A stretch of 45,326 bases of DNA from a phage, in the sequence record PX405663.1. One strand, written 5' to 3'. Shown one piece after another: positions 22,219-34,688 of this stretch. The position numbers were made by a program, and so were the translations under genes. Numbering within the stretch: position 1 is the first letter of the stretch; each line of letters opens with the position of its first letter. The notes beneath the pieces were generated by a model that saw only the letters and a program-made list of their open reading frames with translations, was not told the origin of the DNA and ran no database searches.

Positions 22219-24861
22219 ATGGCAGATCAGGCAGCGGGCATCACGCTCAAGGCGGACGTCGCGCAAATTAAAACGGCTAATACTGTGCTGGACACATTTG
22301 CGCAGAAATCCGAGAACACAGAACAGAAAGTAAAAAAATTAAACGACACCCTCGGCAAGTCGAAAAAGGTTACTGGCGACGCCGCGGGCGGAATGGAAAA
22401 GTTAGCGACTGAATCGCAGCGCGCCGCCGACGGCATGACGAAACAGGAGCGACTCGCCAGCCGATTAGGCATGTCGACCAAAAACCTGGGATTTGCTTCA
22501 CGGAACGCGGCATTCCAGTTACAAGATATTGCGGTAACGCTTGAGATGGGTATGCCGGTGCACCGCGTCATGCTTCAGCAGTTACCACAGCTAACCGGCG
22601 CATTCGGCGGATTAGGTAACACGCTGCGTTATGTTGCGGGCTTCCTCGGCCCAGTAGGGATCGGACTTGCGGCAGTAACGGCGACGTTAGGCGTGGGCGT
22701 GGCAATCACGTCACGGGCAGAGAACCAGGTAGCCGCGCTTAATAAGACGCTGGCGCTGTCCGGTAATATCTCCGGCCTCACAGCTAACCAGATCCTGGTG
22801 CTGTCCGAGAACGCTGAGCGCATGGGCGGGTCATTTCGCAAGACGCGTGACACAATCCAGGCGCTGGCGGCGGCGGGTGTGAAAGCGGGTGGTGACTTCG
22901 GCGCATTGGCTAAGGTAGTTAATGACTTTGCGAAGGTGTCCAGCCAGCCGATCGAGGATGTGGTAGCGGCGGTGGCGAAGCTGTCAACCGACCCCGTTGG
23001 CGGACTGCGTGCGCTGGCGGATAAGTATCACGTCGTAAACGAAGCGCAGATCCAGCAGGTACAGTCGCTTGTTGATGCGGGTCGTGAGACAGACGCAGTT
23101 GCGTTGGCTAATAAAACAGCCGCTGCGTCGTTCACTAGCATGACCAATGAGATCAAGACGAACATGGGAACGCTTGAGCGGTCTATGAACGTCGTCACAT
23201 CGGCAGCGAAATCTATGTGGGACGCCATCCTGGATGTAGGCCGCGCGCAGTCCTCCAATGAATCCGAGATGAAAGCGCGCGAATCACTGCAGCGGCTGAC
23301 CACTGCTTACTATGCCGAGATGAAAGCGGTAAACGCTGCCGGTGGGGTAATGACTGAAGCGCAGAAAGCACGTATTAACATGCTTTACAGCGAACTGGTC
23401 GCCCAGGAAAAAGTGGTGGCATCGCTCACCCTGCGTAACCGTGCTGAGCGAGACAACGCCCGCGCCGCAGACGAATCCGCAAAGGCGAACGAGGAGGCCA
23501 ACCGCACTGCCCGTGACCGCGCCGCGTTCGAGAAGGAATACGCCACCAACGCTAAGAAACGCGCCGACGAGATCGCCCGTCTCAATTTGCTGAATAAGCG
23601 CGGCGTTATCGACGAGAAAGAGCTTGCCGAGGCGGTGAAGCAGGTAAACGAGCGGTACAAAGACCCAGCCCCGAAGAAGGCCGCCGCTGTTCGCGTGGAT
23701 GCCGGTATGAAAATGCTGGAAGTCGCACGGAGCGAACTGGCCCAGCTTCGAGAATCCGGCAAGCAGATCGAAGCCAACGCATCGACGCAGACCCGCACGC
23801 AACGCGCTCAAGCGGCCTTAAACAAGCTGATCGCGGATAATGAGCAGTTAATCGCCGCAAGCAAAGAAAGGGCGCTAACGGCAGCAGAAAAGCAGCAGAT
23901 GGTCGAATTCGGACGCGTGAAGGAAGTGCGCGAGCAGATCGTCGAAGAAGCCAAATTGCTGGACGCGAAAGAGAAGCAGGTTAAGGCGCACGCGCAGATC
24001 GATGCCTTCGTTAAGAACCAGAACGCCGAACTAAAAGCCACCGCCGCGGGGTATGCGCTTTCCACTCGCGAAGCGGCAAACCTGCGCGAAGAATTGCAGC
24101 TAATTGACCGCCTGAAGCGGGTTGGCGCTAACGATACCGATATTGACAAGGCGGTGTCTAAGCTGCGAGAAGTGCAGGAAGCACAGACCGGCGCTAACGC
24201 CTCGTTATGGGATGGATTCAGTCGCGGGCTTAAAGATAGCGTGGATGAAATGGGTAACGGATATACGCAGATGGCGTCGCTCACGAAATTCACATTCAGC
24301 GCTATGCAAGACACGATGAACGAGTTTTTCGAGACTGGCAAGCTGAACGCAAAGGATATGGTTAAATCCATCCTGAGCGAACTAATCAAGCTGGCTACCT
24401 CGCAGGCGTTCAAGTCCATCGTTAGCGCTTTCGGTGGCGACGGCGGCAAAAACGGATTGTTCGGCGCTATATTCTCTGGCCTCACTAAGAATGCGGACGG
24501 CGGAGCGTACGCAGGAGGCAATCTCGCGGCCTATTCGGGGAAAGTCGTAAGCCAGCCTACCTTTTTCAGTTATGGCGTCCAGGCGTTCGCTAAGGGCGCT
24601 GGGTTGATGGGTGAGGCTGGACCCGAGGCCATCATGCCACTGAAGCGCGGGCCGGACGGGAAACTGGGCGTTGCCGCGTCTGGCGCAGGCGGTGGTATGG
24701 TCGTGACGACTAACGTTTACACGGGGACCGGTAAAACGGATACCAGTGTCAGCGGGCCGGACCCCCGTACTGCGCAAGCGTTCGGCAAGCAAATCACCGA
24801 GGCGGTGAAGGCCGAGATCGTGAAGGCTACGAAACCGGGTGGTGTACTTTACAAACGATGA
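22219..24861 (+). CDS. tail tape measure protein
   Basis: 880-aa Ala/Gln/Lys-rich coiled-coil ORF; synteny. Confidence 0.85.
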   Translation: MADQAAGITLKADVAQIKTANTVLDTFAQKSENTEQKVKKLNDTLGKSKKVTGDAAGGMEKLATESQRAADGMTKQERLASRLGMSTKNLGFASRNAAFQLQDIAVTLEMGMPVHRVMLQQLPQLTGAFGGLGNTLRYVAGFLGPVGIGLAAVTATLGVGVAITSRAENQVAALNKTLALSGNISGLTANQILVLSENAERMGGSFRKTRDTIQALAAAGVKAGGDFGALAKVVNDFAKVSSQPIEDVVAAVAKLSTDPVGGLRALADKYHVVNEAQIQQVQSLVDAGRETDAVALANKTAAASFTSMTNEIKTNMGTLERSMNVVTSAAKSMWDAILDVGRAQSSNESEMKARESLQRLTTAYYAEMKAVNAAGGVMTEAQKARINMLYSELVAQEKVVASLTLRNRAERDNARAADESAKANEEANRTARDRAAFEKEYATNAKKRADEIARLNLLNKRGVIDEKELAEAVKQVNERYKDPAPKKAAAVRVDAGMKMLEVARSELAQLRESGKQIEANASTQTRTQRAQAALNKLIADNEQLIAASKERALTAAEKQQMVEFGRVKEVREQIVEEAKLLDAKEKQVKAHAQIDAFVKNQNAELKATAAGYALSTREAANLREELQLIDRLKRVGANDTDIDKAVSKLREVQEAQTGANASLWDGFSRGLKDSVDEMGNGYTQMASLTKFTFSAMQDTMNEFFETGKLNAKDMVKSILSELIKLATSQAFKSIVSAFGGDGGKNGLFGAIFSGLTKNADGGAYAGGNLAAYSGKVVSQPTFFSYGVQAFAKGAGLMGEAGPEAIMPLKRGPDGKLGVAASGAGGGMVVTTNVYTGTGKTDTSVSGPDPRTAQAFGKQITEAVKAEIVKATKPGGVLYKR

Positions 24862-24896
24862 TAAAATGGCCCTCACTACAACGTGGGGGCTTTTTT

Positions 24897-25496
24897 ATGT
24901 CACAAGGTACAATCACACTAACGAACGGAAGTAAGACCGTCACGGGCGCGGGGACGGCGTTCCTGAGCGAGATTGGGAAGGTCCGCGTATTTGCCCGCAT
25001 CGACGGCAACGACTACACCGGAAAAATTGCGGCATTCAACTCTAACACCGTAATCACCCTGGCGGATAACTGGGCAGGCCCGACAAAAGTCGGTGCAGCT
25101 TATGAGCTAATCGAAGCGCACGACCCGCGATCAAACGAATGGCCCTATTACTGGCACATGCAATTGCAGGGCGGTGGCGACGTGCAGTTAGCTTTCCGGT
25201 CGGAGGAATTGCAATTCGGTAATGGCTACGGACAGAACATCGCGGACGGCCCGAACGCCGAAACGAAACAGTTCCCCGTGCAATTCGTCGGGCTGACTAC
25301 TGACAAATGGTGTAACCCCAAACTGGTTTACAACTTCCTTCGCGGGCACTTCGTAAAACCGTTTGTCGTCACCGCGCCGGATGGCGAAACAGGTTTATTC
25401 GTGGTCGAGCGTTCGAGCTTGTCGTACACGGACAACGGGCACAACACGGCAACCGTATCCGCCACCCTTAAGACTGCTATTGGATTCGTAAGATGA
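24897..25496 (+). CDS. minor tail protein (lambda M position); alternative start 24858 overlapping the tape measure stop
   Basis: Track ORF 24858..25496; N-terminus MSQGTITLTNGSKTVTGAGTAF resembles the tail fibre N-terminus MAAGTLSVTNNSKAVVGVGTTF. Confidence 0.6.
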   Translation: MSQGTITLTNGSKTVTGAGTAFLSEIGKVRVFARIDGNDYTGKIAAFNSNTVITLADNWAGPTKVGAAYELIEAHDPRSNEWPYYWHMQLQGGGDVQLAFRSEELQFGNGYGQNIADGPNAETKQFPVQFVGLTTDKWCNPKLVYNFLRGHFVKPFVVTAPDGETGLFVVERSSLSYTDNGHNTATVSATLKTAIGFVR

Positions 25497-26281
25497 ATAA
25501 ACTATATCGCGAGGCGACACGCTTCGACCCATCTGGACGCGTTCGCCTGATTCACATTGACGCGCAGGACGTGGAACCTGGAGACGGTGCGATCGGCGCG
25601 GGCCATCACTATTTCCACTACTGCTTTATCCCGCACACTGCCGAGGATATTGCTGCCGCTGGTGGTGACGAGGATAAGCTAAAACCTAAATCCATCTTCT
25701 TCGGCGGGCAGGAGTTCGAATTCTGGCCCTTCGATCTGTCTGGCCTTAACTTCTCCACATCGACGGCAGCGGAACCGCAGCTAACCATCGTTGATATTGG
25801 CGGAATAATCACCAGGCTGTCGCTAAACCATGACCAGCTACTGGGCGCGAAGGTTGAGATCATTGATACGTTCGCGAAGTTCCTGGACAACGGGACAGAT
25901 CCAGACCCGACGCAGAAGCGAGTCCAGGAGTATTACATCGACTCGCAGGTCGGGCGCAATCCGGGCAAGCAAATTACCTTCGCACTATCCTCGCCTGCGG
26001 ATATGGAAGGGCAGGTCGTTCCCCGTCGCCAAATCATGAATATGTGCGAATGGGCGCTCAACGGGAAGTACGCCAGCGGGGACGGGTGCACCTGGAACCT
26101 TGCGAAACCCGGCATCAAGTATTACGACGAGCGAGGTAATGAAGTCATTGCGATGAATATGGACCGATGCGGCGGCTGTTTGTCCGACTGTTATCTTCGA
26201 TTTGGGCAAGGGCTTGCGGACCCGAAAGCGGCGGTGCTGGACTTCGGCGGCTTTCCGGGGTCCAGATTAATTAAGGGGTAG
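25493..26281 (+). CDS. minor tail protein (lambda L-like)
   Basis: 262 aa; C-terminal Cys cluster DRCGGCLSDC consistent with the Fe-S-containing L family; synteny. Confidence 0.65.
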   Translation: MNKLYREATRFDPSGRVRLIHIDAQDVEPGDGAIGAGHHYFHYCFIPHTAEDIAAAGGDEDKLKPKSIFFGGQEFEFWPFDLSGLNFSTSTAAEPQLTIVDIGGIITRLSLNHDQLLGAKVEIIDTFAKFLDNGTDPDPTQKRVQEYYIDSQVGRNPGKQITFALSSPADMEGQVVPRRQIMNMCEWALNGKYASGDGCTWNLAKPGIKYYDERGNEVIAMNMDRCGGCLSDCYLRFGQGLADPKAAVLDFGGFPGSRLIKG

Positions 26282-26283
26282 TT

Positions 26284-27024
26284 ATGTTAACGAAGAAGGT
26301 TAAAAGCGATATCGCCGCACACGTCGCGGCATGTCTGCCGGAAGAAGCCTGCGGCCTTGTTGTCATGGTGGGTCGCAAACAAGTTTTTATCCCGTGCGTT
26401 AACGTATTCGAAGACCCTACCGGTGCGCGCTCGCGTAAGGACGCGTTTACCATTAGTGATACGGCCTGGATGGACGCTGAGGATATGGGCGACGTCGTTC
26501 GCGTAGTCCACTCACACCCGGGTCAGCGCGAGTTAACCCCATCATTGGGTGACGTTAACGGATGCAACGGCAGCGGCGTCGTCTGGACCATCACTAACGA
26601 ATATGGCGACTTTATCGAGATCGACCCGGAAGACCCGCCGCTGGTGGGCCGCCGATTTGTTCTCGGAATTACGGATTGTTACGGCCTCGTCATGGACTGG
26701 CACAAAAAGCAGGGGGTAAACCTGCCAGACTTCCGCGTGCCGTATAACTGGTGGGAGACAGGCGAAAACCTGTATATGGACAATTGGTACGGTGCGGGCT
26801 TCAGGGAATGCGAGGAGAATACGCCGGGGGCGATGGTTATCATGCAGATCAGCGCGCCAGTACCTAACCATGCCGGGATATTCCTTCCGGGCAACCAACT
26901 ACTACACCACATCTACGGCAGCCTGTCGAGCGTGATACCCTTCCGATCAGGATTTTTCCGGGACAATGTGGTTAAATGGGTACGTCATAAAGACCTACCG
27001 GGGAATATAACAGAATGGCAATGA
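26284..27024 (+). CDS. tail tip protein K-like (MPN/JAB metalloprotease plus NlpC/P60 domains)
   Basis: EACG...VHSHPGQRELTPSLGD JAMM motif; TDCYGL and NHAGIF Cys/His NlpC-P60-like motifs. Confidence 0.75.
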   Translation: MLTKKVKSDIAAHVAACLPEEACGLVVMVGRKQVFIPCVNVFEDPTGARSRKDAFTISDTAWMDAEDMGDVVRVVHSHPGQRELTPSLGDVNGCNGSGVVWTITNEYGDFIEIDPEDPPLVGRRFVLGITDCYGLVMDWHKKQGVNLPDFRVPYNWWETGENLYMDNWYGAGFRECEENTPGAMVIMQISAPVPNHAGIFLPGNQLLHHIYGSLSSVIPFRSGFFRDNVVKWVRHKDLPGNITEWQ

Positions 27025-27632
27025 CCACATTTAAATTATACGGCGTTTTAGGACGTCGATTCGGTAAAGTGCATAAGCTGGACTGCTTCACACCGGGTGA
27101 AGGAATCACCGGCTTATGTGTGAAGTTGCCAGGCTTACAGGACTTTCTAATGTCGGCCCACCTGGACAACATGATGTTCAAAGTGCGCAAGGGCAATCAC
27201 ACTATGACCGGCTACGACGAATTGGGTGAGTTCCACGGCAACCGTGTCGTCACCATCGCGCCGGTTATGACTGGCGCAAAACGCGGACTAGGCCAATTGC
27301 TGGCGGGTGTAGCGATCGTAGTGGCGTCGTTCTATACGGGCGGGCTTGCTACTGCCGCTTTCGGGGCTTCGGCTGCCACCGCTGCCGCTATCGGTACGGC
27401 GACGTTTTCGTTCGGTATGTCGATGGCGCTGGGTGGCGTTATGCAATTGCTGTCGCCACAGCCGAAAGGATTGCAGACACGGCAGGACGTAGATAACAAG
27501 GCGTCTTATGCGTTCGGCGGGCCAGTAAATACGACCGCGCAAGGTACGGCGCTTGGTGTATTATGGGGGGAGCGTGAGATCGGCGGCGCTATTATTTCCG
27601 CCGGAATCGTAACCGAGGACTTGAACGAATGA
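27015..27632 (+). CDS. tail assembly protein I-like
   Basis: 205 aa, Gly/Ala-rich hydrophobic C-terminus; synteny. Confidence 0.65.
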   Translation: MAMTTFKLYGVLGRRFGKVHKLDCFTPGEGITGLCVKLPGLQDFLMSAHLDNMMFKVRKGNHTMTGYDELGEFHGNRVVTIAPVMTGAKRGLGQLLAGVAIVVASFYTGGLATAAFGASAATAAAIGTATFSFGMSMALGGVMQLLSPQPKGLQTRQDVDNKASYAFGGPVNTTAQGTALGVLWGEREIGGAIISAGIVTEDLNE

Positions 27633-30600
27633 CGATTATCTACGACGTCACAGGGCATAAAGGCGGCGGCGGCAAACAGCACACCCCACAGGAGACGCCC
27701 GATAGCCTGCATTCGATGGCTAAAATCCGCATCTTGCTCGCACTGGGCGAAGGGGAATTCGAAGGCATTCCCGACCCTAACGAATTGCGTCAGCGCGTAT
27801 ATCTTGACGGCACCCCGATCCAGAACGAGGACCGGTCCGAAAACTTCCCGGGCGCGCGCGTGGAGTTCCGCCCAGGCACACAGCACCAGGATGTGATCCA
27901 CGGATTTTCGGCGGTGGAAAGTGAGCAATCTGTCAGCGTAAAACTGGAAAACGGCACGCCGTGGGTGCGCCAGATTAACGATACCAGTCTGGACGCCGTT
28001 CGCATTCGAGTCGGCATACCGGCCCTGTACACTAACGAAGATAATGGCGACCTGGTTGGCGGGCGCATCGACTATAAAATCGTGGTGTATACGGATAACG
28101 CCGACCCGCGTGAGTTCAGATTCGCCGCCGTTGGTAAAACAATGTCGCTGTACGAGCGCGACCACCGCATCGAATTACCGCCAAACGTGAATACTGGCTG
28201 GCGAGTGGAGGTGCACCGCATAACGGCAGACTCCACATCGGCGAAAGTGGTTAATGATATCCGGGTGCAATCCATCACTGAGATTATCGACGCCCGCCTG
28301 CGTTACCCGCTAACCGCGCTGTTGTTTGTGGAGTTCGACGCTAAAGCGTTCCAGAACATCCCGCGCGTGTCCATCAAGTGCAAAGGCCGCAAAGTTCTAA
28401 TACCTAACAACTACGACCCGATTAATCATACCTATTCCGGGGACTGGGACGGCACGTTTAAACGCGCATGGACGGATAACCCGGCGTGGCACTGGTACGA
28501 TATTTGTATTACTGAGCGCTTCGGCCTCGGTCGCCGGATCAAGCCGCAAATGCTGAACCGGTACGCGCTTTACCAGATTGCGCAGCGCTGCGATCAACTG
28601 GTCAGTGACGGCAACGGTGGTCGAGAAATCCGCTTTAAGAATGATATGTACATTCAGTCACAGACGGATGCCTGGACCGTGCTTAAGGATTTAGCCGCCA
28701 TCTTCGCCGGAATGACCTGGTGGGGCAACCAGATGTTGAATATCGTCAGTGACCAGCCGGTAGCAGCGGTGTCCCACACTATCACCAACGCCTCGGTTAT
28801 TGATGGGCGCTTCGACTACGCGTCCGGTAGCCAGAAAACTCGGTACTCCACGTTCGCAGTAGCATACGGCAACCCGAAGAACCACTATGAAGATGCCATC
28901 GCAACGGGGCAACGTGTCGAACTGGTACGCCGCCATAAGATTAACCGTCTTGATATTACGGCGATCGGCTGTACGCGTGAATCTGAAGCGCAACGCCGCG
29001 GGCACTGGGCGCTAATTTCCAACCAGCTTGACCAGCAAGTTAGCTTTAAGGTGGGCATGGAGGGGTTATTCTTTATCCCTGGTAGCGTAGTCGCGATCGC
29101 AGATACTAATATTTCTGGCGGATTCGAGACTCGTGGCGGTCGACTGTTGTCAGACCCCGGAACGCGTACCGTGCTGAACACGGACAGCGAAATCACGTTC
29201 CGCCCTGGCGATAAGTTCCTGGTGCGCACCGATAGCGGTAATGTGGAGACTCGCGAGATCGCCAGCGTCAACGGCAACAAGGTTACGCTAAAAACTGCAC
29301 TGGATGCCGACCCGATTCCAGACCAGCCGTTTTGCGTTGATGGCAACGATATCCAGTTGCAGAAGTTCCGCATAACCGACCTGGAATATGACGACTCTAC
29401 CAGCACTTTTTCGGTGCGCGGGATTGAATACAACGATAGCAAATATGATGCCGTTGATAATGGCGCGCGCCTTGACCCAGGCATCTTTACGCAAGTGCCG
29501 GACGGTGTGATGAAGGGGCCGGAATCCGTGACCATAACCCCGTCGCAGATTTCATCGCAAGGCCAGCTAATCACCAACGTGGATATTGTTTTCCCGCCGG
29601 TTAAGGATGCCGTGGTGTATGAAATCCAGTGGCGACGTACCAGCTTGCAGAATATGGAAATCCAGTGGGGCAACGACTGGGTGAATATTCCGCGCACGGC
29701 GTCGAATGGCGCGCACATTCCTAACGTGTTCTCCGGTAACTACCAGGCACGCGTCCGTGCGATCGGTATGGGCGAGATTTCGTCCCCGTGGGTGTCGTCC
29801 GCTATCACGCCGATAGAAGGTCGTCTCGGCGGGCTTAACGCGCCTATCATCACCAACGCGATTTCGGGCCTCCACCAAATTTTGTGGAAGTGGAACCACA
29901 ACAACGCCGCGACGGATATTTCGTACACCGAGCTTGAAGTGCGCAAGACCGGTGAAACGGAGTGGAAATTTCTTACCAACGTCCCATATCCAGGGGCGGA
30001 GTATGCGCAAACGTCACTGGAGTTCGGGATCTATCAGCAGTTGCGCGCCCGTGTAGCGGATAAAATCGGCAACCTGTCGGACTGGTCGGCCCCGTTTGAA
30101 GGGCAGGTGAGTGACAAAGTTGACGAATACATGAAGGGGCTTGATGACGAGTTCTTGACTTCCGAGGACGGTAAACGCTTCCAGGAAGCGATCGACACCA
30201 TGCCGCAAGGTATCTATGAGTCTATGCTTACGGACGCCCAGCAGCTATTCAATGCCCGCGCCGAGTATAAAGGGATTTATGCGGAAATCACGGTGGCGTA
30301 TAACGTGGCGGCGGACGCGCATAAAGCCGTAGCGCAACTGGAAACGTTGATCGGCACGCGCCTTGATGACGCCGAAGCATCAATCCACACGTTGCAGACT
30401 GCGCAAAGCACACATGAACAAGCGTTCGCCCAGTACCAGCAAACTGTTGCCGCTAAGTTTTCGGAACAGGAAGCAGCCATCCAGCAGGTACAAACGGCAA
30501 CGGCGGACGTGGCTGGCGCACTGGCTGAGTACAAGACCCAGGTCGCGGCGCAGTTCGGTCAGCAGTCCGCAGCTATCGAGCAGAAGATGACGTCTTCGTT

Positions 30601-31075
30601 TAACCATGCTGGTGGCAGCGCCACGTACAGTCTTAAGGCTGGCGTGACGTATAACGGGACTTACTATGACGCCGGTATGCAGCTTTCGGTTGTGACGTCT
30701 GGCAACGCAGTTAAATCGCGTATTGCGTTCAAAGCCGACCAGTTCTATATCATGCACCCATCTAATGGGTCGCTTTCGTCCGCGTTTATCGTTGATGGTG
30801 GGCAGGTGTACATCGACACGGCACGCATCAAGGATGCGTCAATCAACTTTGCACAGATCACGGACACGCTGCAATCAAATAACTTCGTTTCCGGGTCACG
30901 TGGCTGGCGTATCCAGAAAGGCGGGGCCGCGGAGTTTAACGAGGTGACGGTGCGCGGCAACTTGTTCGCGACTACTGGTAACTTCGGGTTTTCCGGCGGG
31001 ACGGTGACGATCGACGCCACAGGCGTTAATGTGCCATTACCCGGCGGGGGGAGGGTGAAAGTCGGTACGTGGTAA
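27629..31075 (+). CDS. central tail fibre / tail tip protein J-like
   Basis: 1148-aa ORF, ATGA overlap with upstream gene; size and position. Confidence 0.85.
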   Translation: MTIIYDVTGHKGGGGKQHTPQETPDSLHSMAKIRILLALGEGEFEGIPDPNELRQRVYLDGTPIQNEDRSENFPGARVEFRPGTQHQDVIHGFSAVESEQSVSVKLENGTPWVRQINDTSLDAVRIRVGIPALYTNEDNGDLVGGRIDYKIVVYTDNADPREFRFAAVGKTMSLYERDHRIELPPNVNTGWRVEVHRITADSTSAKVVNDIRVQSITEIIDARLRYPLTALLFVEFDAKAFQNIPRVSIKCKGRKVLIPNNYDPINHTYSGDWDGTFKRAWTDNPAWHWYDICITERFGLGRRIKPQMLNRYALYQIAQRCDQLVSDGNGGREIRFKNDMYIQSQTDAWTVLKDLAAIFAGMTWWGNQMLNIVSDQPVAAVSHTITNASVIDGRFDYASGSQKTRYSTFAVAYGNPKNHYEDAIATGQRVELVRRHKINRLDITAIGCTRESEAQRRGHWALISNQLDQQVSFKVGMEGLFFIPGSVVAIADTNISGGFETRGGRLLSDPGTRTVLNTDSEITFRPGDKFLVRTDSGNVETREIASVNGNKVTLKTALDADPIPDQPFCVDGNDIQLQKFRITDLEYDDSTSTFSVRGIEYNDSKYDAVDNGARLDPGIFTQVPDGVMKGPESVTITPSQISSQGQLITNVDIVFPPVKDAVVYEIQWRRTSLQNMEIQWGNDWVNIPRTASNGAHIPNVFSGNYQARVRAIGMGEISSPWVSSAITPIEGRLGGLNAPIITNAISGLHQILWKWNHNNAATDISYTELEVRKTGETEWKFLTNVPYPGAEYAQTSLEFGIYQQLRARVADKIGNLSDWSAPFEGQVSDKVDEYMKGLDDEFLTSEDGKRFQEAIDTMPQGIYESMLTDAQQLFNARAEYKGIYAEITVAYNVAADAHKAVAQLETLIGTRLDDAEASIHTLQTAQSTHEQAFAQYQQTVAAKFSEQEAAIQQVQTATADVAGALAEYKTQVAAQFGQQSAAIEQKMTSSFNHAGGSATYSLKAGVTYNGTYYDAGMQLSVVTSGNAVKSRIAFKADQFYIMHPSNGSLSSAFIVDGGQVYIDTARIKDASINFAQITDTLQSNNFVSGSRGWRIQKGGAAEFNEVTVRGNLFATTGNFGFSGGTVTIDATGVNVPLPGGGRVKVGTW

Positions 31076-31102: not shown

Positions 31103-32068
31103 TCAATACATATTTGGGATGACGAGTAGCGGGGTAGGTACGGCAATATTTTTACCCGGCATCTGAAATTGCTGCCGTGAGTAGTTGCCGATGACGCGGT
31201 TTTTAGCGACGCGCACATTATTACCCGCCATGCGAATACCGTTCATGCGGACGTGATTATAGCCCCCGTTGTTCTGAATCAGCGCACCGGTGTATGAAAG
31301 CTGGATCAGGCTGTTTCCAATATTCTGGTCGCCCGTTCCGATGTTAATAGTGCGGTCATATACGAACGGCTTGTTCACCGTCGAGAACGTGACCTGATTC
31401 TGGCTATTCGTCATGGTGATCCCGGCCCCTGGCGTTGGTGGTGTATTGTTGAATATTACCAAATCCATGTCCACCGAAGCCGCCACATCGTCGATGCCAC
31501 CGTAGGACGCGTTGCGGACGATAATACTGCCGCCGTCGAAGCCTACTGATACGTTGCCATCGTCCCATCGGGCGAATGGGACACCGCTAACGGGCAATGC
31601 CATACTACCGTTGACGCGCACGCGCTGTGCGTATCGGCAGGTCATTAGCTTAGTCACGTTGGATATAGCGGTGAAGTCCGTCGAGTTCTCCACCAGTAAG
31701 CCCGCGTTACGTGAACCAACCGGCAGCACTTCCATTATGACGCCTGCCCATTGTGGTAAGCCAGAGTACGCGCCATACGCATCCTCCCCGCGCAGGGTGA
31801 TACCACTATTCCCGTTGCGGGTAACAGACGTAACGTAAAACGGGTCGGGAATTACCAGGGTCTGGTCGAATACCTCAATCACTTCTACCGGGCGAGTAAG
31901 CGCGACGACGACCTGCGACCCCTCCGTAAGAGGGGTATTAATCGTAAGCGTCTTGTTGGACTGGCAGCGCTGATCAAACGCAGTGCAGTATGACGGAGCG
32001 CGCAACCCGGCGGTTATCTCCATTACCGGCCTGCCGTCGTTATAGTCGATAAGTATTCCAGCGCCCAT
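31103..32068 (-). CDS. Asn/Gly/Val-rich beta-rich protein (about 321 aa), antisense between J and the tail fibre; receptor-related candidate
   Basis: Track ORF 31103..32077; the second ATG has the better GGGAG spacing. Confidence 0.5.
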   Translation of the reverse strand: MGAGILIDYNDGRPVMEITAGLRAPSYCTAFDQRCQSNKTLTINTPLTEGSQVVVALTRPVEVIEVFDQTLVIPDPFYVTSVTRNGNSGITLRGEDAYGAYSGLPQWAGVIMEVLPVGSRNAGLLVENSTDFTAISNVTKLMTCRYAQRVRVNGSMALPVSGVPFARWDDGNVSVGFDGGSIIVRNASYGGIDDVAASVDMDLVIFNNTPPTPGAGITMTNSQNQVTFSTVNKPFVYDRTINIGTGDQNIGNSLIQLSYTGALIQNNGGYNHVRMNGIRMAGNNVRVAKNRVIGNYSRQQFQMPGKNIAVPTPLLVIPNMY

Positions 32069-32070
32069 TA

Positions 32071-32292
32071 TTACCACTCCCGTGATTTAACTGATACTGT
32101 GCCTGAGAAGTTGCCGTCGCTATCGGATGACAGCCCAGTGAATCGCATGTCTACATCTCCTGCCGGGACTTTTTGCCCGTCAACGTAGCGCAACATGCAG
32201 CTACCGTAAGCAACCGTAACGCAATCGCCGTTGTTGCGATCTACGGCGCAACCGGACAAAAGAACCGCACAAATCATAATTAAAGTTTTCAT
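32071..32292 (-). CDS. small lipoprotein (about 73 aa), candidate superinfection-exclusion lipoprotein
   Basis: Track ORF 32071..32355 trimmed to MKTLIMICAVLLSGCAV (signal peptide with lipobox LSGC). Confidence 0.55.
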   Translation of the reverse strand: MKTLIMICAVLLSGCAVDRNNGDCVTVAYGSCMLRYVDGQKVPAGDVDMRFTGLSSDSDGNFSGTVSVKSREW

Positions 32293-32334
32293 GGTATCAT
32301 CTCTTATATTTGGTTGAGTTTTAGTATTACACCG

Positions 32335-32362
32335 CTCAACCAGGATTGCAACCAATTTACGA
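32335..32362 (-). promoter_or_regulatory. TATTGGTTGCA-type promoter-like motif oriented toward the antisense lipoprotein gene
   Basis: Minus strand reads AAATTGGTTGCAATCC about 45 nt upstream of the lipoprotein start; overlaps the tail fibre SD on the other strand. Confidence 0.45.
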
Positions 32363-32372
32363 GGATTTAGCT

Positions 32373-34688
32373 ATGGCAGCGGGTACGCTATCCGTAACGA
32401 ACAATAGCAAGGCGGTAGTAGGGGTCGGCACGACGTTTACCGCGTTTAAAGCTGGCGACTTCTTAACGCTGGTGGTAGGACAAGTCCCATACACCGTGGC
32501 AATCGCGTCCGTTGAAAGCGCAACCGCGCTTACGCTGGTGCTGCCGTTCGACGGCCCAACGGCAACCGGCCTCGCGTGGGATGGTGTTAAGCGCGATACC
32601 ATGTCACTGGCGACGATGGGCGTAACCGTACAGGCGCAGAAAGCGTTGCGATTGATGATCGCCGATGAAAACAACTGGCGTGCAATCTTCGGAGACGAAG
32701 AAGAAATCTCGATCACGCTGCCGAATGGTCAGGTAATGCAGGGTATGTCGTGGGGCTACCTGTCGTCTTTGCTGAAGGAAGTAGACCCCGTTGAGATGCG
32801 CAACCTGCAACAACAAGCCGCCGCATCTGAAGCCGCCGCGCAAGGATTTCGCAATGAGGCGGAAGGCTTCAAGAACACCGCGAATACCGCGAAAGATGCC
32901 GCAGTAGCAGCGAAGACCGCGGCGGAGACTGCACGGGGCGAAGCCAACACCGCAAAAACGGCAGCAGAGTCCGCAAAGACCGCCGCGGAGACCGCTAAAG
33001 ACCAGGCCGTAACCGCTAAAGACCAGGCTAAAGTCTTCCGCGACGAGGCCGAGGGTTTCGCAAATAGCACAGACGCGTCACAGAAAGTGCCGTACGCGGG
33101 TGTGCAAGTAGCATCTGCAACTGGAATGGCGGACCTGCTCAAGCAGTTGCGCGATAATGTTAAAGGTGGATTCTGGCGCATCGCTAATACATCTCAGTTC
33201 CCCGAGGGCGAACTGAGACCTTTTACACACGGACCCGGTATTTGTGGTGGTGCTGGGGATACATTCTTTGCTATTAACGTTGATTACTCATCAGCGCGCG
33301 TTAAAGTTTACGCTGGAAACAATAACGCTATCAATGGTACGAGTGGACAGGTGCGCGCCCTTGAGTTGGCTAGGCTAGATTCCCCCACTTTTACGGGTAA
33401 AGTGAATGCGCCTAATATTGGGGTTGGCACGGTTACACTACGGCCCGTAACTTCCGGGGAAGGCAGCGGTGACGGGGTTGTTTGGGAGTCTAGAAACGCC
33501 TCGGAGGCAAGTTTCGGTATTGCGAATGTCGGCGGGGGGTCCGCGGTTTTCCACAACTACTCAAAACCGGCAAACGGATCCGGCGTGGCTACAGGAGTGC
33601 TTATTGGGGGGTATGGGTCGCGTCCGTGGACTGGTACTACATATACGGACCACTCAAACGTGTCGCAGCACTTCCTCATGGACGGGACCGCTTCGGATAC
33701 TAACCACGGCGGCTGGTTTAGGTTGCTAACAACCCCATTGAATAAGACCAACGCCGACCGGAGGCAAACATTCGCGACCAGCAACAACGGCGACCTTTAT
33801 ATAGGTTTCGATGTGCCTATGGGGCTTTATAAGCTAACGCAGGAAAGTTACAACGGATTGGAAGTATTAAACGGTCGCGGTCTTAAACAAGTAAATAACA
33901 CAGCTAATGAAATAGCCTTAATCACCCCACGAAACGGGTCGACCGCTAATATAAACATCCGAGGTGTGGCTTTTGACGGCACAATGGCTGGCACTAAGGG
34001 GGCAACTCAGCCGGGAGACAACTTGTGGCTATCTTTTGCAGGTCACGATGGGGTGAAATTCACGGGTGCCGCTGCCGGTATGCGTATTCAGGCGTCGACT
34101 GGCTGGTCAACCACAAACACGCAATGCGGAATAACGTTTGCGACAACGAAAGCAGGGTCCACGCAGAGGGTGGATCGGTGGAGCATTACGAGCGACGGGT
34201 CGCTGTCCCCCGCAGCCGACAACACATACCCGATCGGCAGTGCAGTCTCCCGTGTTACCGCAGTCTTTGCCACAAATGGTGCAATACAGACCTCGGATGC
34301 AAGAATGAAGACCGAGGTTAGGGGTTTAACAGCGGCTGAGATGGGTGCCTCTAAAGAAATCGCCCGTGAGATTGGTATTTTCCAGTGGCTTGCGCGAGTA
34401 GCCGAAGAGGGGGATGAGGCGAGGCTCCATGCCGGTATTACCGTGCAGAAAGTGATGGAAATCATGCGGTCTTACGGTCTGGACCCCTTGAAGTATGGAT
34501 TCGTGTGTTACGACGAATGGGAGGAGACTTCAGAGGTTATAAGCGACCCCGATGATAATTCGAAGTCGACGATCAAGATAACCCCCGCGGGCAATAGATA
34601 TAGCTTGCGATATTCGGAACTAAACGTGTTTATCGCCCGAGGACTTGAGCAAAGAATCTCAGAACTGGAGGCTAAGTTAGCTGGTTGA
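32373..34688 (+). CDS. side tail fibre with C-terminal intramolecular chaperone (peptidase S74-like) domain
   Basis: Track ORF 32346..34688 (TTG) trimmed to the ATG 8 nt after GAGGA; C-terminal SDARMK...IGIFQWL...LKYGFVCYDEWEE...RISELEAKLAG resembles the self-cleaving chaperone of endosialidase/L-shaped fibres. Confidence 0.75.
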   Translation: MAAGTLSVTNNSKAVVGVGTTFTAFKAGDFLTLVVGQVPYTVAIASVESATALTLVLPFDGPTATGLAWDGVKRDTMSLATMGVTVQAQKALRLMIADENNWRAIFGDEEEISITLPNGQVMQGMSWGYLSSLLKEVDPVEMRNLQQQAAASEAAAQGFRNEAEGFKNTANTAKDAAVAAKTAAETARGEANTAKTAAESAKTAAETAKDQAVTAKDQAKVFRDEAEGFANSTDASQKVPYAGVQVASATGMADLLKQLRDNVKGGFWRIANTSQFPEGELRPFTHGPGICGGAGDTFFAINVDYSSARVKVYAGNNNAINGTSGQVRALELARLDSPTFTGKVNAPNIGVGTVTLRPVTSGEGSGDGVVWESRNASEASFGIANVGGGSAVFHNYSKPANGSGVATGVLIGGYGSRPWTGTTYTDHSNVSQHFLMDGTASDTNHGGWFRLLTTPLNKTNADRRQTFATSNNGDLYIGFDVPMGLYKLTQESYNGLEVLNGRGLKQVNNTANEIALITPRNGSTANINIRGVAFDGTMAGTKGATQPGDNLWLSFAGHDGVKFTGAAAGMRIQASTGWSTTNTQCGITFATTKAGSTQRVDRWSITSDGSLSPAADNTYPIGSAVSRVTAVFATNGAIQTSDARMKTEVRGLTAAEMGASKEIAREIGIFQWLARVAEEGDEARLHAGITVQKVMEIMRSYGLDPLKYGFVCYDEWEETSEVISDPDDNSKSTIKITPAGNRYSLRYSELNVFIARGLEQRISELEAKLAG

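What the first reader, a model, noticed from the sequence alone, without database searches (positions are those of the whole stretch)
24897..25100. Shared N-terminal motif between the M-position minor tail protein and the side tail fibre
MSQGTITLTNGSKTVTGAGTAF (24897) and MAAGTLSVTNNSKAVVGVGTTF (32373) start two otherwise different tail proteins. A common N-terminal module suggests both dock to the same site on the tail tip or were assembled by domain shuffling; it also supports the choice of start codons.
Basis: seen in the sequence. Interest (0 to 1): 0.4.

Follow-up and report, generated by a model that had tools for sequence, protein, structure and literature searches.

The report
Fibre-anchor domain fused to distal tail protein
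In this E. coli phage (genus Dhillonvirus) the ring protein that closes the tail tube carries, at its very start, a copy of the same small 75-residue domain that heads the side tail fibre; the match is real and selected for, but it is a lineage-specific variation on known tail-tip designs and its exact job is unproven.

Summary
The 22-residue motif is the start of a gap-free, roughly 73-residue similarity (34% identity, BLASTP E=2e-7; z=15 against shuffles).

The window is a Dhillonvirus. The gene at 24897-25496 encodes the gpM/distal tail protein (Dit): a ~75-residue beta-barrel module, a short linker, then the gpM fold. The gene at 32373-34688 is the lateral tail fibre (LTF), with the same module at its N-terminus.

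The module is a large family without a Pfam model (3,983 cluster representatives). It nearly always sits at residue 1 of fibre proteins. It is homologous (profile E=8e-8) to the N-terminal attachment domain of F-type pyocin side fibres, whose anchoring role is shown by cryo-EM.

Close relatives have a plain 123-residue gpM with the same upstream DNA and start codon, so the module is an in-frame insertion of about 78 codons at the 5' end of gene M. Those relatives keep a near-identical LTF N-terminus, so the Dit copy is not required for fibre docking. It is still under purifying selection (dN/dS 0.13).

Domain shuffling and both start codons are supported. "Both dock to the same site" is not shown. 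I judge this a new variant of the "evolved Dit", of moderate interest.

The parts
24897..25496 (+). Gene for the distal tail protein (gpM homologue, 199 aa), directly after the tape-measure gene
   Evidence: PF05939 E=2.2e-11 over residues 86-193. phrog_9922 matched full length, E=1e-139. Near-identical over all 199 residues (E=5.8e-131) to PDB 23gd chain B 'Distal tail protein gp20' of phage Oekolampad.
24885..24889 (+). GGGGG Shine-Dalgarno-like run, 7 nt upstream of ATG 24897
   Evidence: Read from the sequence. Conserved with the ATG in the plain-gpM relatives L004 and L005.
24897..25121 (+).
   Evidence: BLASTP against the LTF. Profile hits to 23gd_B at 5.9e-26 and to the F2-pyocin side fibre 25ve_A at 8.4e-8. 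AlphaFold2 pLDDT 84-94 for residues 1-70, seven to eight short strands. Absent from close relatives. dN/dS 0.13.
25122..25151 (+). Linker (residues 76-85, HDPRSNEWPY) between the module and the gpM fold
   Evidence: Low pLDDT from residue 79. Plain gpM proteins start about 4-5 residues before the conserved WPYYW motif.
25152..25496 (+). gpM / tail-tube-fold core of the Dit (residues 86-199, plus stop)
32361..32365 (+). GAGGA Shine-Dalgarno sequence, 7 nt upstream of ATG 32373
   Evidence: Read from the sequence.
32373..34688 (+). Lateral (side) tail fibre gene, 771 aa
   Evidence: Tail-fibre PHROGs. Residues 365-769 match the T5 L-shaped tail fibre pb1 (4uw8), E=5.6e-106. PF13884 S74 chaperone domain at 641-702. 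The orthologue in Oekolampad is annotated 'lateral tail fiber protein'.
32373..32597 (+). N-terminal module of the LTF (residues 1-75), paralogue of the Dit module
   Evidence: 54-65% identical to the fibre N-termini of N15 gp25 and L004. Conserved across Dhillonvirus while the rest of the fibre varies (PMC8594841, S2 Fig legend).
32598..32780 (+). Conserved post-module stem of the LTF (residues 76-136), not shared with the Dit
   Evidence: 80-98% conserved across Dhillonvirus together with the module. dN/dS 0.05.
27629..31075 (+). J-like central fibre gene (context: one candidate docking partner for the LTF module)
   Evidence: Residues 7-859 match the F2-pyocin central fibre, E=2e-224. Residues ~892-1101 (Ala/Gln-rich helical shaft plus tip) match F2 residues 977-1186, E=4e-18.
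22219..24861 (+). Tape-measure gene (context: fixes the 'M position')
   Evidence: PF06791 and PF09718.

Best explanation
The shared N-terminus is a mobile beta-barrel domain of about 75 residues, of the kind that anchors side fibres to lambda-like (gpJ-type) tail tips.

In the lateral tail fibre it is the virion-attachment end of the trimer. In the distal tail protein it is a lineage-specific acquisition: about 78 codons were inserted in frame immediately after the start codon of gene M in the Dhillonvirus lineage.

Each of the six Dit subunits therefore carries a tethered copy on a linker of about 10 residues. The N-terminus of gpM lies on the outside of the ring, so these six copies should sit at the tube/Dit junction. 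That is where lambda and T5 build their fibre collars.

My preferred reading is that the six copies form a built-in partial collar that packs side by side with the homologous LTF domains. This would stabilise fibre attachment or set the number of fibres, but it is not strictly required for attachment.

Shown: the homology, the domain boundaries, the insertion event, the start codons, purifying selection, and the anchoring role of the homologous pyocin domain. Inferred: the position on the ring and any contact between the Dit-borne and fibre-borne copies.

My confidence is about 0.95 for the identity and origin of the module. The 0.4 below applies to the collar/adaptor function.
For: - Homology and extent.
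- Architecture (module plus gpM fold).
- Family behaviour: 3,983 cluster representatives at E<=1e-3. Of the 153 proteins my scan of the sequences held so far picked up (the best 150 search hits plus Dit proteins found earlier), 126 have one module at residue 1 and a median length of 405 aa. Where database names exist they read 'phage tail protein' or 'tail fiber domain-containing protein'. Cultured examples are the fibres of N15, HK225, ES18, ENT39118 and nickie; the four gene maps I opened (N15, ENT39118, nickie, and the window's own type) place the fibre downstream of a J-type gene.
- Anchoring role of the homologue: three cryo-EM studies of F-type pyocins show residues ~2-76 of the side fibre attaching it to the central fibre. 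[quoted passage not shown]
- Insertion event: the tape-measure 3' end, intergenic region, SD and ATG are conserved with L004 and L005, and divergence starts right after the ATG. The plain gpM proteins are 56-66% identical to the core.
- Function retained: dN/dS is 0.13 for the Dit module, against 0.04 for the core and 0.07 for the LTF module. The invariant family residues G4, T5, T9, S12, G17, T20, F22, S49, G61, P62 and A68 are kept.
- Position: in Ur-lambda the Stf collar domains contact gpM K2 and W6, that is, the N-terminus of gpM (PMC12617516). W86 of the window protein sits in an invariant tryptophan column shared with the plain gpM proteins and N15 gp17; that this column corresponds to lambda W6 is my own inference, because lambda gpM was not aligned here.
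Against: - Four relatives with a plain gpM (L004, L005, L006, L022) still carry an LTF with the module. In L005 its N-terminus differs from the window's at about 4 of 107 positions (my count). The Dit copy is therefore dispensable for docking.
- N15 and the F-pyocins also have a plain gpM.
- There is no co-variation between the Dit and LTF modules in 17 genomes (r=-0.04, Mantel p=0.5). The divergence range is small, so the test has low power.
- The Dit module is 33-45% identical to the fibre modules I compared, which are 54-65% identical to each other. It has drifted away from the fibre type.
- The solved Oekolampad tail tip (PDB 23gd: gp15, gp20, gp21, gp24) has no LTF chain, so no ordered mixed collar was modelled.
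- In F-pyocins the homologous domain docks on the coiled-coil shaft of the central fibre, not on the Dit. This phage's J has a homologous shaft.
Confidence: 0.4

Rival explanations
1. The Dit-borne module is an independent decoration or adhesion domain. Like the OB-fold domain B of T5 pb9, the carbohydrate-binding insertions of 'evolved' Dits, or Ig-like domains on tube proteins, it would contact the cell surface weakly or simply decorate the ring. On this view it plays no part in fibre attachment, and it shares ancestry with the fibre anchor only because this small barrel is a promiscuous building block.
For: - The module is present or absent among close relatives that have the same LTF N-terminus.
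- In L005 and L006 the neighbouring hub protein gpL instead carries an insertion of about 150 residues that resembles part of the R4C 'Megatron' protein. Peripheral tail-tip decorations are therefore swapped in this group.
- The module also occurs as 2-13 tandem copies inside giant proteins that carry PKD domains, typical of stalk or adhesin domains.
- The Dit copy evolves about three times faster than the core and shows no co-variation with the LTF.
Against: - No ligand is known for this module.
- Every characterised homologue is a fibre anchor.
- The Dit copy keeps the family's invariant polar residues and the free N-terminus typical of the fibre-borne form.
- Its predicted position coincides with the known collar site (inference).
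Confidence: 0.33
2. Same-site occupancy. The tethered Dit module binds in cis the very surface on the tube/Dit junction that a fibre-borne module would bind. It would fill six of the collar positions and so limit or fix the number of fibres by competition rather than by co-assembly.
For: - The domain family is the same and the conserved surface residues are retained.
- Lambda and T5 collars have 12 positions around a six-fold ring.
- A plain-gpM relative and a fused form use nearly the same LTF N-terminus.
Against: - The docking site of the LTF in this phage group is unknown.
- In F-pyocins the site is on the central-fibre shaft, which a Dit-tethered domain cannot reach.
- The Dit copy has diverged to 33-45% identity from the fibre copies compared.
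Confidence: 0.12
3. A neutral relic or a chance resemblance: low-complexity G/T/S-rich N-termini that look alike, or a recombination scar with no function.
For: The motif is rich in G, T, S and N. Phage tail genes are mosaic.
Against: - z=15 against composition-preserving shuffles.
- Profile E-values of 1e-30 or better.
- The module is predicted as a confident folded domain.
- dN/dS is 0.13 at dS about 0.4.
- The fused form is conserved in about 158 sequenced Dhillonvirus genomes.
Confidence: 0.03

Closest known systems
N-terminal attachment ('OB') domain of F-type pyocin side fibres (PyoF13 / PA0643 / PA0646; PDB 25ve, 25vj)
   Same: Homologous by sequence profile (E=8.4e-8, residues 5-76). 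Same position at the extreme N-terminus and the same size. It belongs to a tail tip whose J, L and M proteins are also homologous to this phage's. It anchors a trimeric side fibre.
   Different: In pyocins the domain is only on the fibre, the gpM homologue is plain (113 aa), and the docking site is the central-fibre coiled coil. Here a second copy is fused to the Dit.
Phage T5 pb9, a Dit with an OB-fold decoration domain (PDB 4jmq)
Side-fibre collars of Ur-lambda (Stf N-domain) and of T5/DT57C (p132 / LtfC)
   Same: Small beta domains arranged around the tube/Dit junction that hold trimeric side fibres. The lambda collar touches the N-terminus of gpM, which is where the module is fused here.
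   Different: Those domains are described as Ig-like, form homododecamers and are unrelated in sequence (no PDB hit from the LTF). None is covalently part of the Dit.
'Evolved' Dits and galectin-domain Dits of Gram-positive siphophages and monocin
   Same: The general principle is shared: the Dit ring is a platform that gains extra domains for fibre attachment or carbohydrate binding (summarised in PMC13455828).
   Different: The added fold and the insertion point differ (C-terminal or internal). Those Dits are not gpM-type minimal Dits.
Tail fibres of N15 (gp25), HK225, ES18 (gp33), SPN3UB, ENT39118, nickie
   Same: They carry the same N-terminal module (38-45% identity to the Dit copy; 42-44% to the window LTF over about 130 residues for N15, ES18 and the SPN3UB-like phages, ~40% for ENT39118). 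Where I opened the gene map (N15, ENT39118, nickie) the fibre gene lies downstream of a J-type gene.
   Different: N15, the one of these whose gene M I looked at, has a plain gpM (gene 17, 115 aa). None of these phages matched the window Dit over its full length.

Membership tests
gpM / Phage_min_tail (PF05939), the lambda-type distal tail protein | Sequence match to the family model above the curated threshold | tested here: met
   44.5 bits against a 39-bit cut-off, E=2.2e-11, residues 86-193 covering model positions 5-106 of 108.
gpM / Phage_min_tail (PF05939), the lambda-type distal tail protein | Gene position directly after the tape-measure gene and before the L, K, I and J homologues | tested here: met
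   Gene order TMP, M, L, K, I, J with matching Pfam and PHROG hits.
gpM / Phage_min_tail (PF05939), the lambda-type distal tail protein | Tail-tube fold and a place in the hexameric ring of the virion | tested here: met
gpM / Phage_min_tail (PF05939), the lambda-type distal tail protein | Minimal single-domain size (about 110-125 aa) | tested here: not met
   The protein is 199 aa, with about 78 extra N-terminal residues compared with the closest plain homologues. It is a member with an added domain.
F-pyocin-type side-fibre N-terminal attachment domain (no Pfam model) | Significant sequence homology to the solved domain | tested here: met
   Profile A4 against the PDB gives 25ve_A at E=8.4e-8 over residues 5-76. 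The Dit protein alone gives E=0.0037.
F-pyocin-type side-fibre N-terminal attachment domain (no Pfam model) | A small all-beta barrel of about 75 residues at the extreme N-terminus | tested here: met
F-pyocin-type side-fibre N-terminal attachment domain (no Pfam model) | Attaches a trimeric fibre to the tail tip | not testable with these tools
   For the LTF this is inferred from homology and from conservation of the N-terminus against a variable distal part. For the Dit copy there is no evidence either way.
T5 pb9-like Dit with an OB decoration | The OB-fold decoration domain follows the Dit fold | tested here: not met
   Here the extra domain precedes the Dit fold.
T5 pb9-like Dit with an OB decoration | Structural similarity of the decoration domain to pb9 domain B | tested here: inconclusive
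Lambda Stf / T5 p132 Ig-like collar domains | Sequence or fold relationship to the collar domain | tested here: not met
   Neither the LTF nor the Dit query hit a Stf or p132 chain in the PDB sequence search, although Ur-lambda entry 9e7m is in the library.

The most novel reading that the evidence does not exclude
Dhillonviruses build a hetero-oligomeric fibre collar. Six Dit-tethered modules alternate with six fibre-borne paralogous modules, two from each of three LTF trimers as in F-pyocins, to close a 12-membered ring around the tube/Dit junction. Sister phages with a plain gpM would have to fill all positions with fibre domains, or dock fibres on the J shaft. Gain or loss of about 78 codons in gene M would then switch the number or site of side fibres. 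It would also be direct sequence evidence that Dit decoration domains (as in T5 pb9) and fibre anchor domains belong to one interchangeable family.
Probability: 0.15. Interest if true: 0.6.

Novelty: new variant of a known kind. Interest (0 to 1): 0.38.

Why it matters
How side fibres are fastened to siphophage tails has only recently been seen, in Ur-lambda, T5/DT57C and the F-pyocins, and each showed a different solution.

Here the domain that anchors fibres in F-pyocins is also found covalently built into a minimal lambda-type Dit. Natural sister phages lack the fusion but keep the same fibre N-terminus. That amounts to a ready-made natural deletion experiment.

The finding matters in three ways:
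- It links Dit 'decoration' domains and fibre 'anchor' domains through plain sequence homology.
- It defines a large domain family, about 4,000 cluster representatives, that has no Pfam model and could be used to mark the attachment end of fibres when annotating or engineering host range.
- It fixes the start codons of two genes that are inconsistently annotated in public records (199, 212 or 218 aa).

It does not reveal a new kind of system.

Tried and rejected
- A word-indexed homology search with the 80-residue module alone found nothing, a limit of that tool for short queries. The full HMMER scan and tblastn replaced it.
- Single-sequence AlphaFold2 failed (pLDDT 40). The alignment-based run was used instead.
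- I found no paper describing PDB 23gd or the Dhillonvirus Dit. The Oekolampad paper covers only the RBP-LptDE complex. The AlphaFold study of Dhillonvirus receptor-binding proteins does not mention the Dit.
- The Rhizobium phage RHph_X2_26 'putative minor tail protein M' looked like a second Dit fusion. It is a 367-residue protein far downstream of the tape-measure gene, so it is probably a fibre named by transfer from the module.
- I considered a recent intragenomic duplication of the LTF 5' end and rejected it. The Dit module is only 33% identical to its own LTF and no closer to it than to foreign fibres.
- I rejected an upstream start at ATG 24858, which overlaps the tape-measure stop. That frame is closed by TAA in L005, and the homologous start in the relatives is the downstream ATG.
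- The co-variation (Mantel) test gave no signal, but it has low power.

Full report
**1. Observation**

The similarity goes well beyond 22 residues.
- BLASTP aligns residues 1-73 of both proteins without a gap: 25/73 identical, 53% positives, E=2e-7.
- Smith-Waterman scores exceed all 5,000 shuffles. For 22 residues z=10.4, and for 80 residues z=15.
- A profile of the module finds two and only two copies in the six-frame translation of the window.

**2. What the two genes are**

The window is a Dhillonvirus, a small E. coli siphophage. The tested stretch is 91-94% identical at the DNA level to phiEco273, PC2, Oekolampad, EK99P-1, SO-1 and others. The tail module has the lambda gene order:

| Gene | Coordinates |
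|---|---|
| Tape measure | 22219-24861 |
| M | 24897-25496 |
| L | 25493-26281 |
| K | 26284-27024 |
| I | 27015-27632 |
| J | 27629-31075 |

The M-position protein (199 aa) matches PF05939 (gpM) only over residues 86-193. Residues 1-72 instead match the N-termini of several tail-fibre PHROGs. It is near-identical (E=5.8e-131 over all 199 residues) to PDB 23gd chain B, 'Distal tail protein gp20', which is exactly bas18_0020 of phage Oekolampad. That entry also holds gp15 (tube), gp21 (hub) and gp24 (J), so it is a tail-tip complex. I found no paper describing it.

The second protein (771 aa) is the lateral tail fibre. By residue range it consists of:
- 1-75: the shared module.
- 76-136: a stem conserved across Dhillonvirus.
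- about 137-240: an Ala-rich stretch that I read as coiled coil (from the sequence; not tested).
- 365-640: a T5 pb1-like receptor-binding region.
- from 641: an S74 intramolecular chaperone domain.

**3. The module as a domain family**

*Fold.* With an alignment, AlphaFold2 predicts residues 1-72 of the Dit as a confident small all-beta domain (pLDDT 84-94). A low-confidence linker and the gpM fold follow.

*Size and position of the family.* An exhaustive HMMER scan with a two-sequence profile found 3,983 cluster representatives at E<=1e-3 and 505 at E<=1e-10. My domain scan of the sequences held at that point (the best 150 hits plus the Dit proteins found earlier) picked up 153 proteins:
- 126 carry one copy starting at residue 1, with a median length of 405 aa.
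- Five start 9-30 residues in. At least P0001 and P0002 are start-codon calls upstream of the true ATG.
- 22 are large proteins with 2-13 tandem internal copies. The four largest that I scanned against Pfam carry PKD domains.
- Only the Dhillonvirus Dit proteins (P0001-P0004, all from one lineage) combine the module with a gpM domain.

*Names and hosts.* No Pfam model covers the module. Where databases give names, they are 'phage tail protein' or 'tail fiber domain-containing protein'. In cultured phages the module heads the fibres of N15 (gp25), HK225, ES18 (gp33), SPN3UB, ENT39118, nickie and others. In the three of these whose gene maps I opened (N15, ENT39118, nickie) the fibre gene lies downstream of a J-type central-fibre gene.

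*Solved homologue.* A 19-sequence profile hits the F2-pyocin side fibre (PDB 25ve) at E=8.4e-8 over its residues 5-76. Three independent cryo-EM studies show that this domain attaches the trimeric side fibre to the coiled-coil shaft of the central fibre. [quoted passage not shown] One of the studies calls it an OB domain resembling the decoration domain of the T5 Dit (PMC13455828; 10.64898/2026.02.24.707460; PMC12874032).

The module is therefore a known kind of object, a fibre-attachment domain. For the LTF, the role of virion anchor follows by homology. [quoted passage not shown]

**4. How the Dit acquired it**

The closest homologues lacking the module are 122-125-residue gpM proteins, 56-66% identical to the core. 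Their contigs (L004, L005, L006, and L022 from IMG/VR) are Dhillonvirus-like. For L004-L006 the called genes show the same order and nearly the same sizes: tape measure 880 aa, K 246 aa, I 205-206 aa, J 1085-1148 aa.

A DNA alignment shows that the tape-measure 3' end, its stop codon, the 35-nt spacer, the GGGGG(C/T)TTTTT motif and the ATG are conserved. Similarity collapses immediately after the ATG. At the protein level the window has 78 extra residues between Met1 and the conserved WPYYW motif.

This is a clean in-frame insertion at the 5' end of gene M, or equivalently a replacement of its first codons by the 5' end of a fibre gene. It settles ATG 24897 as the start. In L005 the upstream in-frame ATG (24858 in the window) runs into TAA. 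Some database entries (212 and 218 aa) start too early.

The donor was not this phage's present LTF. The Dit module is 33% identical to its own LTF and 37-42% to N15 gp25 and the L004 fibre (up to about 45% in the tblastn hits), while those fibre modules are 54-65% identical to one another.

**5. Is the Dit-borne copy functional, and does it talk to the fibre?**

I compared 17 fused genomes: the window, Oekolampad and 15 IMG/VR contigs.

| Region | dN/dS (dS about 0.4-0.6) |
|---|---|
| Dit module | 0.13 |
| LTF module | 0.07 |
| LTF stem | 0.05 |
| Dit core | 0.04 |

The Dit copy is maintained by selection, though about three times more loosely than the core. Its mean pairwise divergence is 8.9% against 2.8% for the core.

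Three results argue against an obligatory Dit-module/LTF-module partnership:
- (a) All four plain-gpM relatives still have an LTF with the module. In L005 it differs from the window's at about 4 of 107 positions by my count.
- (b) N15 and the F-pyocins have plain gpM proteins.
- (c) Divergence of the Dit module does not correlate with divergence of the LTF module (r=-0.04, Mantel p=0.50). It does track the Dit core (r=0.79, p=0.04). The test has little power at these low divergences.

In addition, no LTF chain is present in any PDB entry, so the deposited Oekolampad tip has no modelled fibre domain.

**6. Where the copies probably sit (inference)**

In Ur-lambda, twelve Stf N-terminal domains form a collar at the gpV/gpM junction and touch gpM K2 and W6 (PMC12617516). 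W86 of the window protein lies in an invariant tryptophan column shared with the plain gpM proteins and N15 gp17. Equating that column with lambda W6 is my inference, because lambda gpM was not in the alignment. If it holds, a domain fused to the gpM N-terminus through a linker of about 10 residues would lie on the outside of the ring at the collar position.

Six such domains cannot close a ring around a tail tube; lambda and T5 use twelve. That is what suggests a mixed collar with fibre-borne paralogues.

There is an alternative. This phage's tip is closely related to the F-pyocin tip (J residues 7-859, E=2e-224). Its J also has an Ala/Gln-rich helical shaft homologous to the distal part of the pyocin shaft. 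The LTF might therefore dock on J as in pyocins. A Dit-tethered domain could not take part in that case. The acidic kink that binds pyocin fibres lies upstream of the aligned segment, so I could not map it onto J.

**7. Explanations and weights**

I regard the following as established (about 0.95): the motif is the start of a homologous domain of about 75 residues; it is a fibre-anchor domain family; the Dit copy arose by a 5' in-frame acquisition specific to Dhillonvirus; it is selected for; and both start codons are right.

The role of the Dit copy is inferred. My weights are:

| Reading | Weight |
|---|---|
| Built-in partial collar or adaptor that packs with LTF domains and helps fibre attachment without being essential | about 0.40 |
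| Independent decoration or adhesin domain, like pb9 domain B | about 0.33 |
| Cis-occupancy of the fibre-docking surface, which sets fibre number | about 0.12 |
| Neutral relic or chance resemblance | about 0.03 |
| Something else | remainder |

The decoration reading is supported by the presence/absence polymorphism, by the alternative ~150-residue insertion in gpL of L005 and L006, and by the tandem arrays in PKD-containing giant proteins.

**8. Comparison with known systems and novelty**

The protein is a member of the gpM/Dit family with an added domain, and both window copies are members of the F-pyocin-type fibre-anchor domain family. The arrangement works like an 'evolved Dit'. It resembles T5 pb9 in concept, but the decoration is N-terminal rather than after the Dit fold (the pb9 domain order is from my own knowledge of 4jmq). 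It is not related to the Ig-like collars of lambda and T5.

I found no publication noting that the Dhillonvirus Dit and LTF share this domain. The pieces exist in databases (phrog_9922, PDB 23gd). I classify it as a new variant of a known kind, of moderate interest. Its main value is the natural fused/unfused pair of phage lineages, and a large unannotated domain family that marks the attachment end of fibres.

Noticed in passing
L005:10362-11609 and L006:6133-7380 (gpL homologues of plain-gpM relatives); window gpL is 25493-26281: In two relatives that lack the Dit module, the hub protein gpL is 415 aa instead of 262 aa. It carries an insertion of about 150 residues (roughly residues 55-205). 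Residues 70-194 weakly match residues 497-617 of the 'Megatron' protein of roseophage R4C (8gtc_M, E=1.6e-4). Peripheral tail-tip decorations seem to be exchanged between M and L in this phage group.
   Followed up: partly
Proteins P0011, P0012, P0013, P0015, P0035, P0038 and others: The same ~70-residue module occurs as 2-13 tandem internal copies in 22 proteins of 374-2,894 aa. The four largest that I scanned also have PKD domains and fragments of CBM_5_12 or NHL. The arrays also give cumulative weak matches to PF05354 (Phage_attach, gpFII). Their genomic context could not be looked up with the tools allowed.
   Followed up: partly
window 27629-31075 (J), especially about 30266-30598: J is strikingly close to the F2-pyocin central fibre (E=2e-224 over residues 7-859). 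It also has an Ala/Gln-rich helical shaft (about residues 880-990) homologous to the distal part of the pyocin coiled coil and to T1 J. In F7 pyocin that coiled coil undergoes a fold switch (PMC12874032). Whether the phage J does the same is open.
   Followed up: partly
window 24858-24896: An in-frame ATG overlaps the tape-measure stop codon (ATGA) and would add 13 residues. Public protein clusters include 212- and 218-residue versions that start upstream (P0001, P0002). Comparison with plain-gpM relatives shows these starts are wrong.
   Followed up: yes
window 31103-32077 (-) and 32071-32355 (-): Between J and the LTF, on the opposite strand, lie a DUF6453 protein (324 aa as listed from a GTG start; the orthologues are 321 aa) and a small phage lipoprotein (PF24052). 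This is the locus that the BASEL papers treat as the true receptor-binding-protein locus of small siphophages, and that an AlphaFold study proposes as a hidden tail-tip RBP (PMC12309495).
   Followed up: no
window 33465-34688: The distal half of the LTF is a close homologue of the T5 L-shaped tail fibre pb1 receptor-binding domain plus its S74 chaperone (4uw8, E=5.6e-106). A T5-type tip is thus grafted onto a Dhillonvirus-type anchor. Other Dhillonviruses carry different distal parts (fibre reading frames of 554-909 codons in the loci scanned, and a Phage_tail_C_2 tip in L004).
   Followed up: partly
L003:7968-9071 (Rhizobium phage RHph_X2_26): A 367-residue protein annotated 'putative minor tail protein M' lies far from the tape-measure gene and matches only the module (35% identity, E=6e-4). 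The name was probably transferred from Dhillonvirus Dit entries through the shared module, so it looks like an annotation error.
   Followed up: partly
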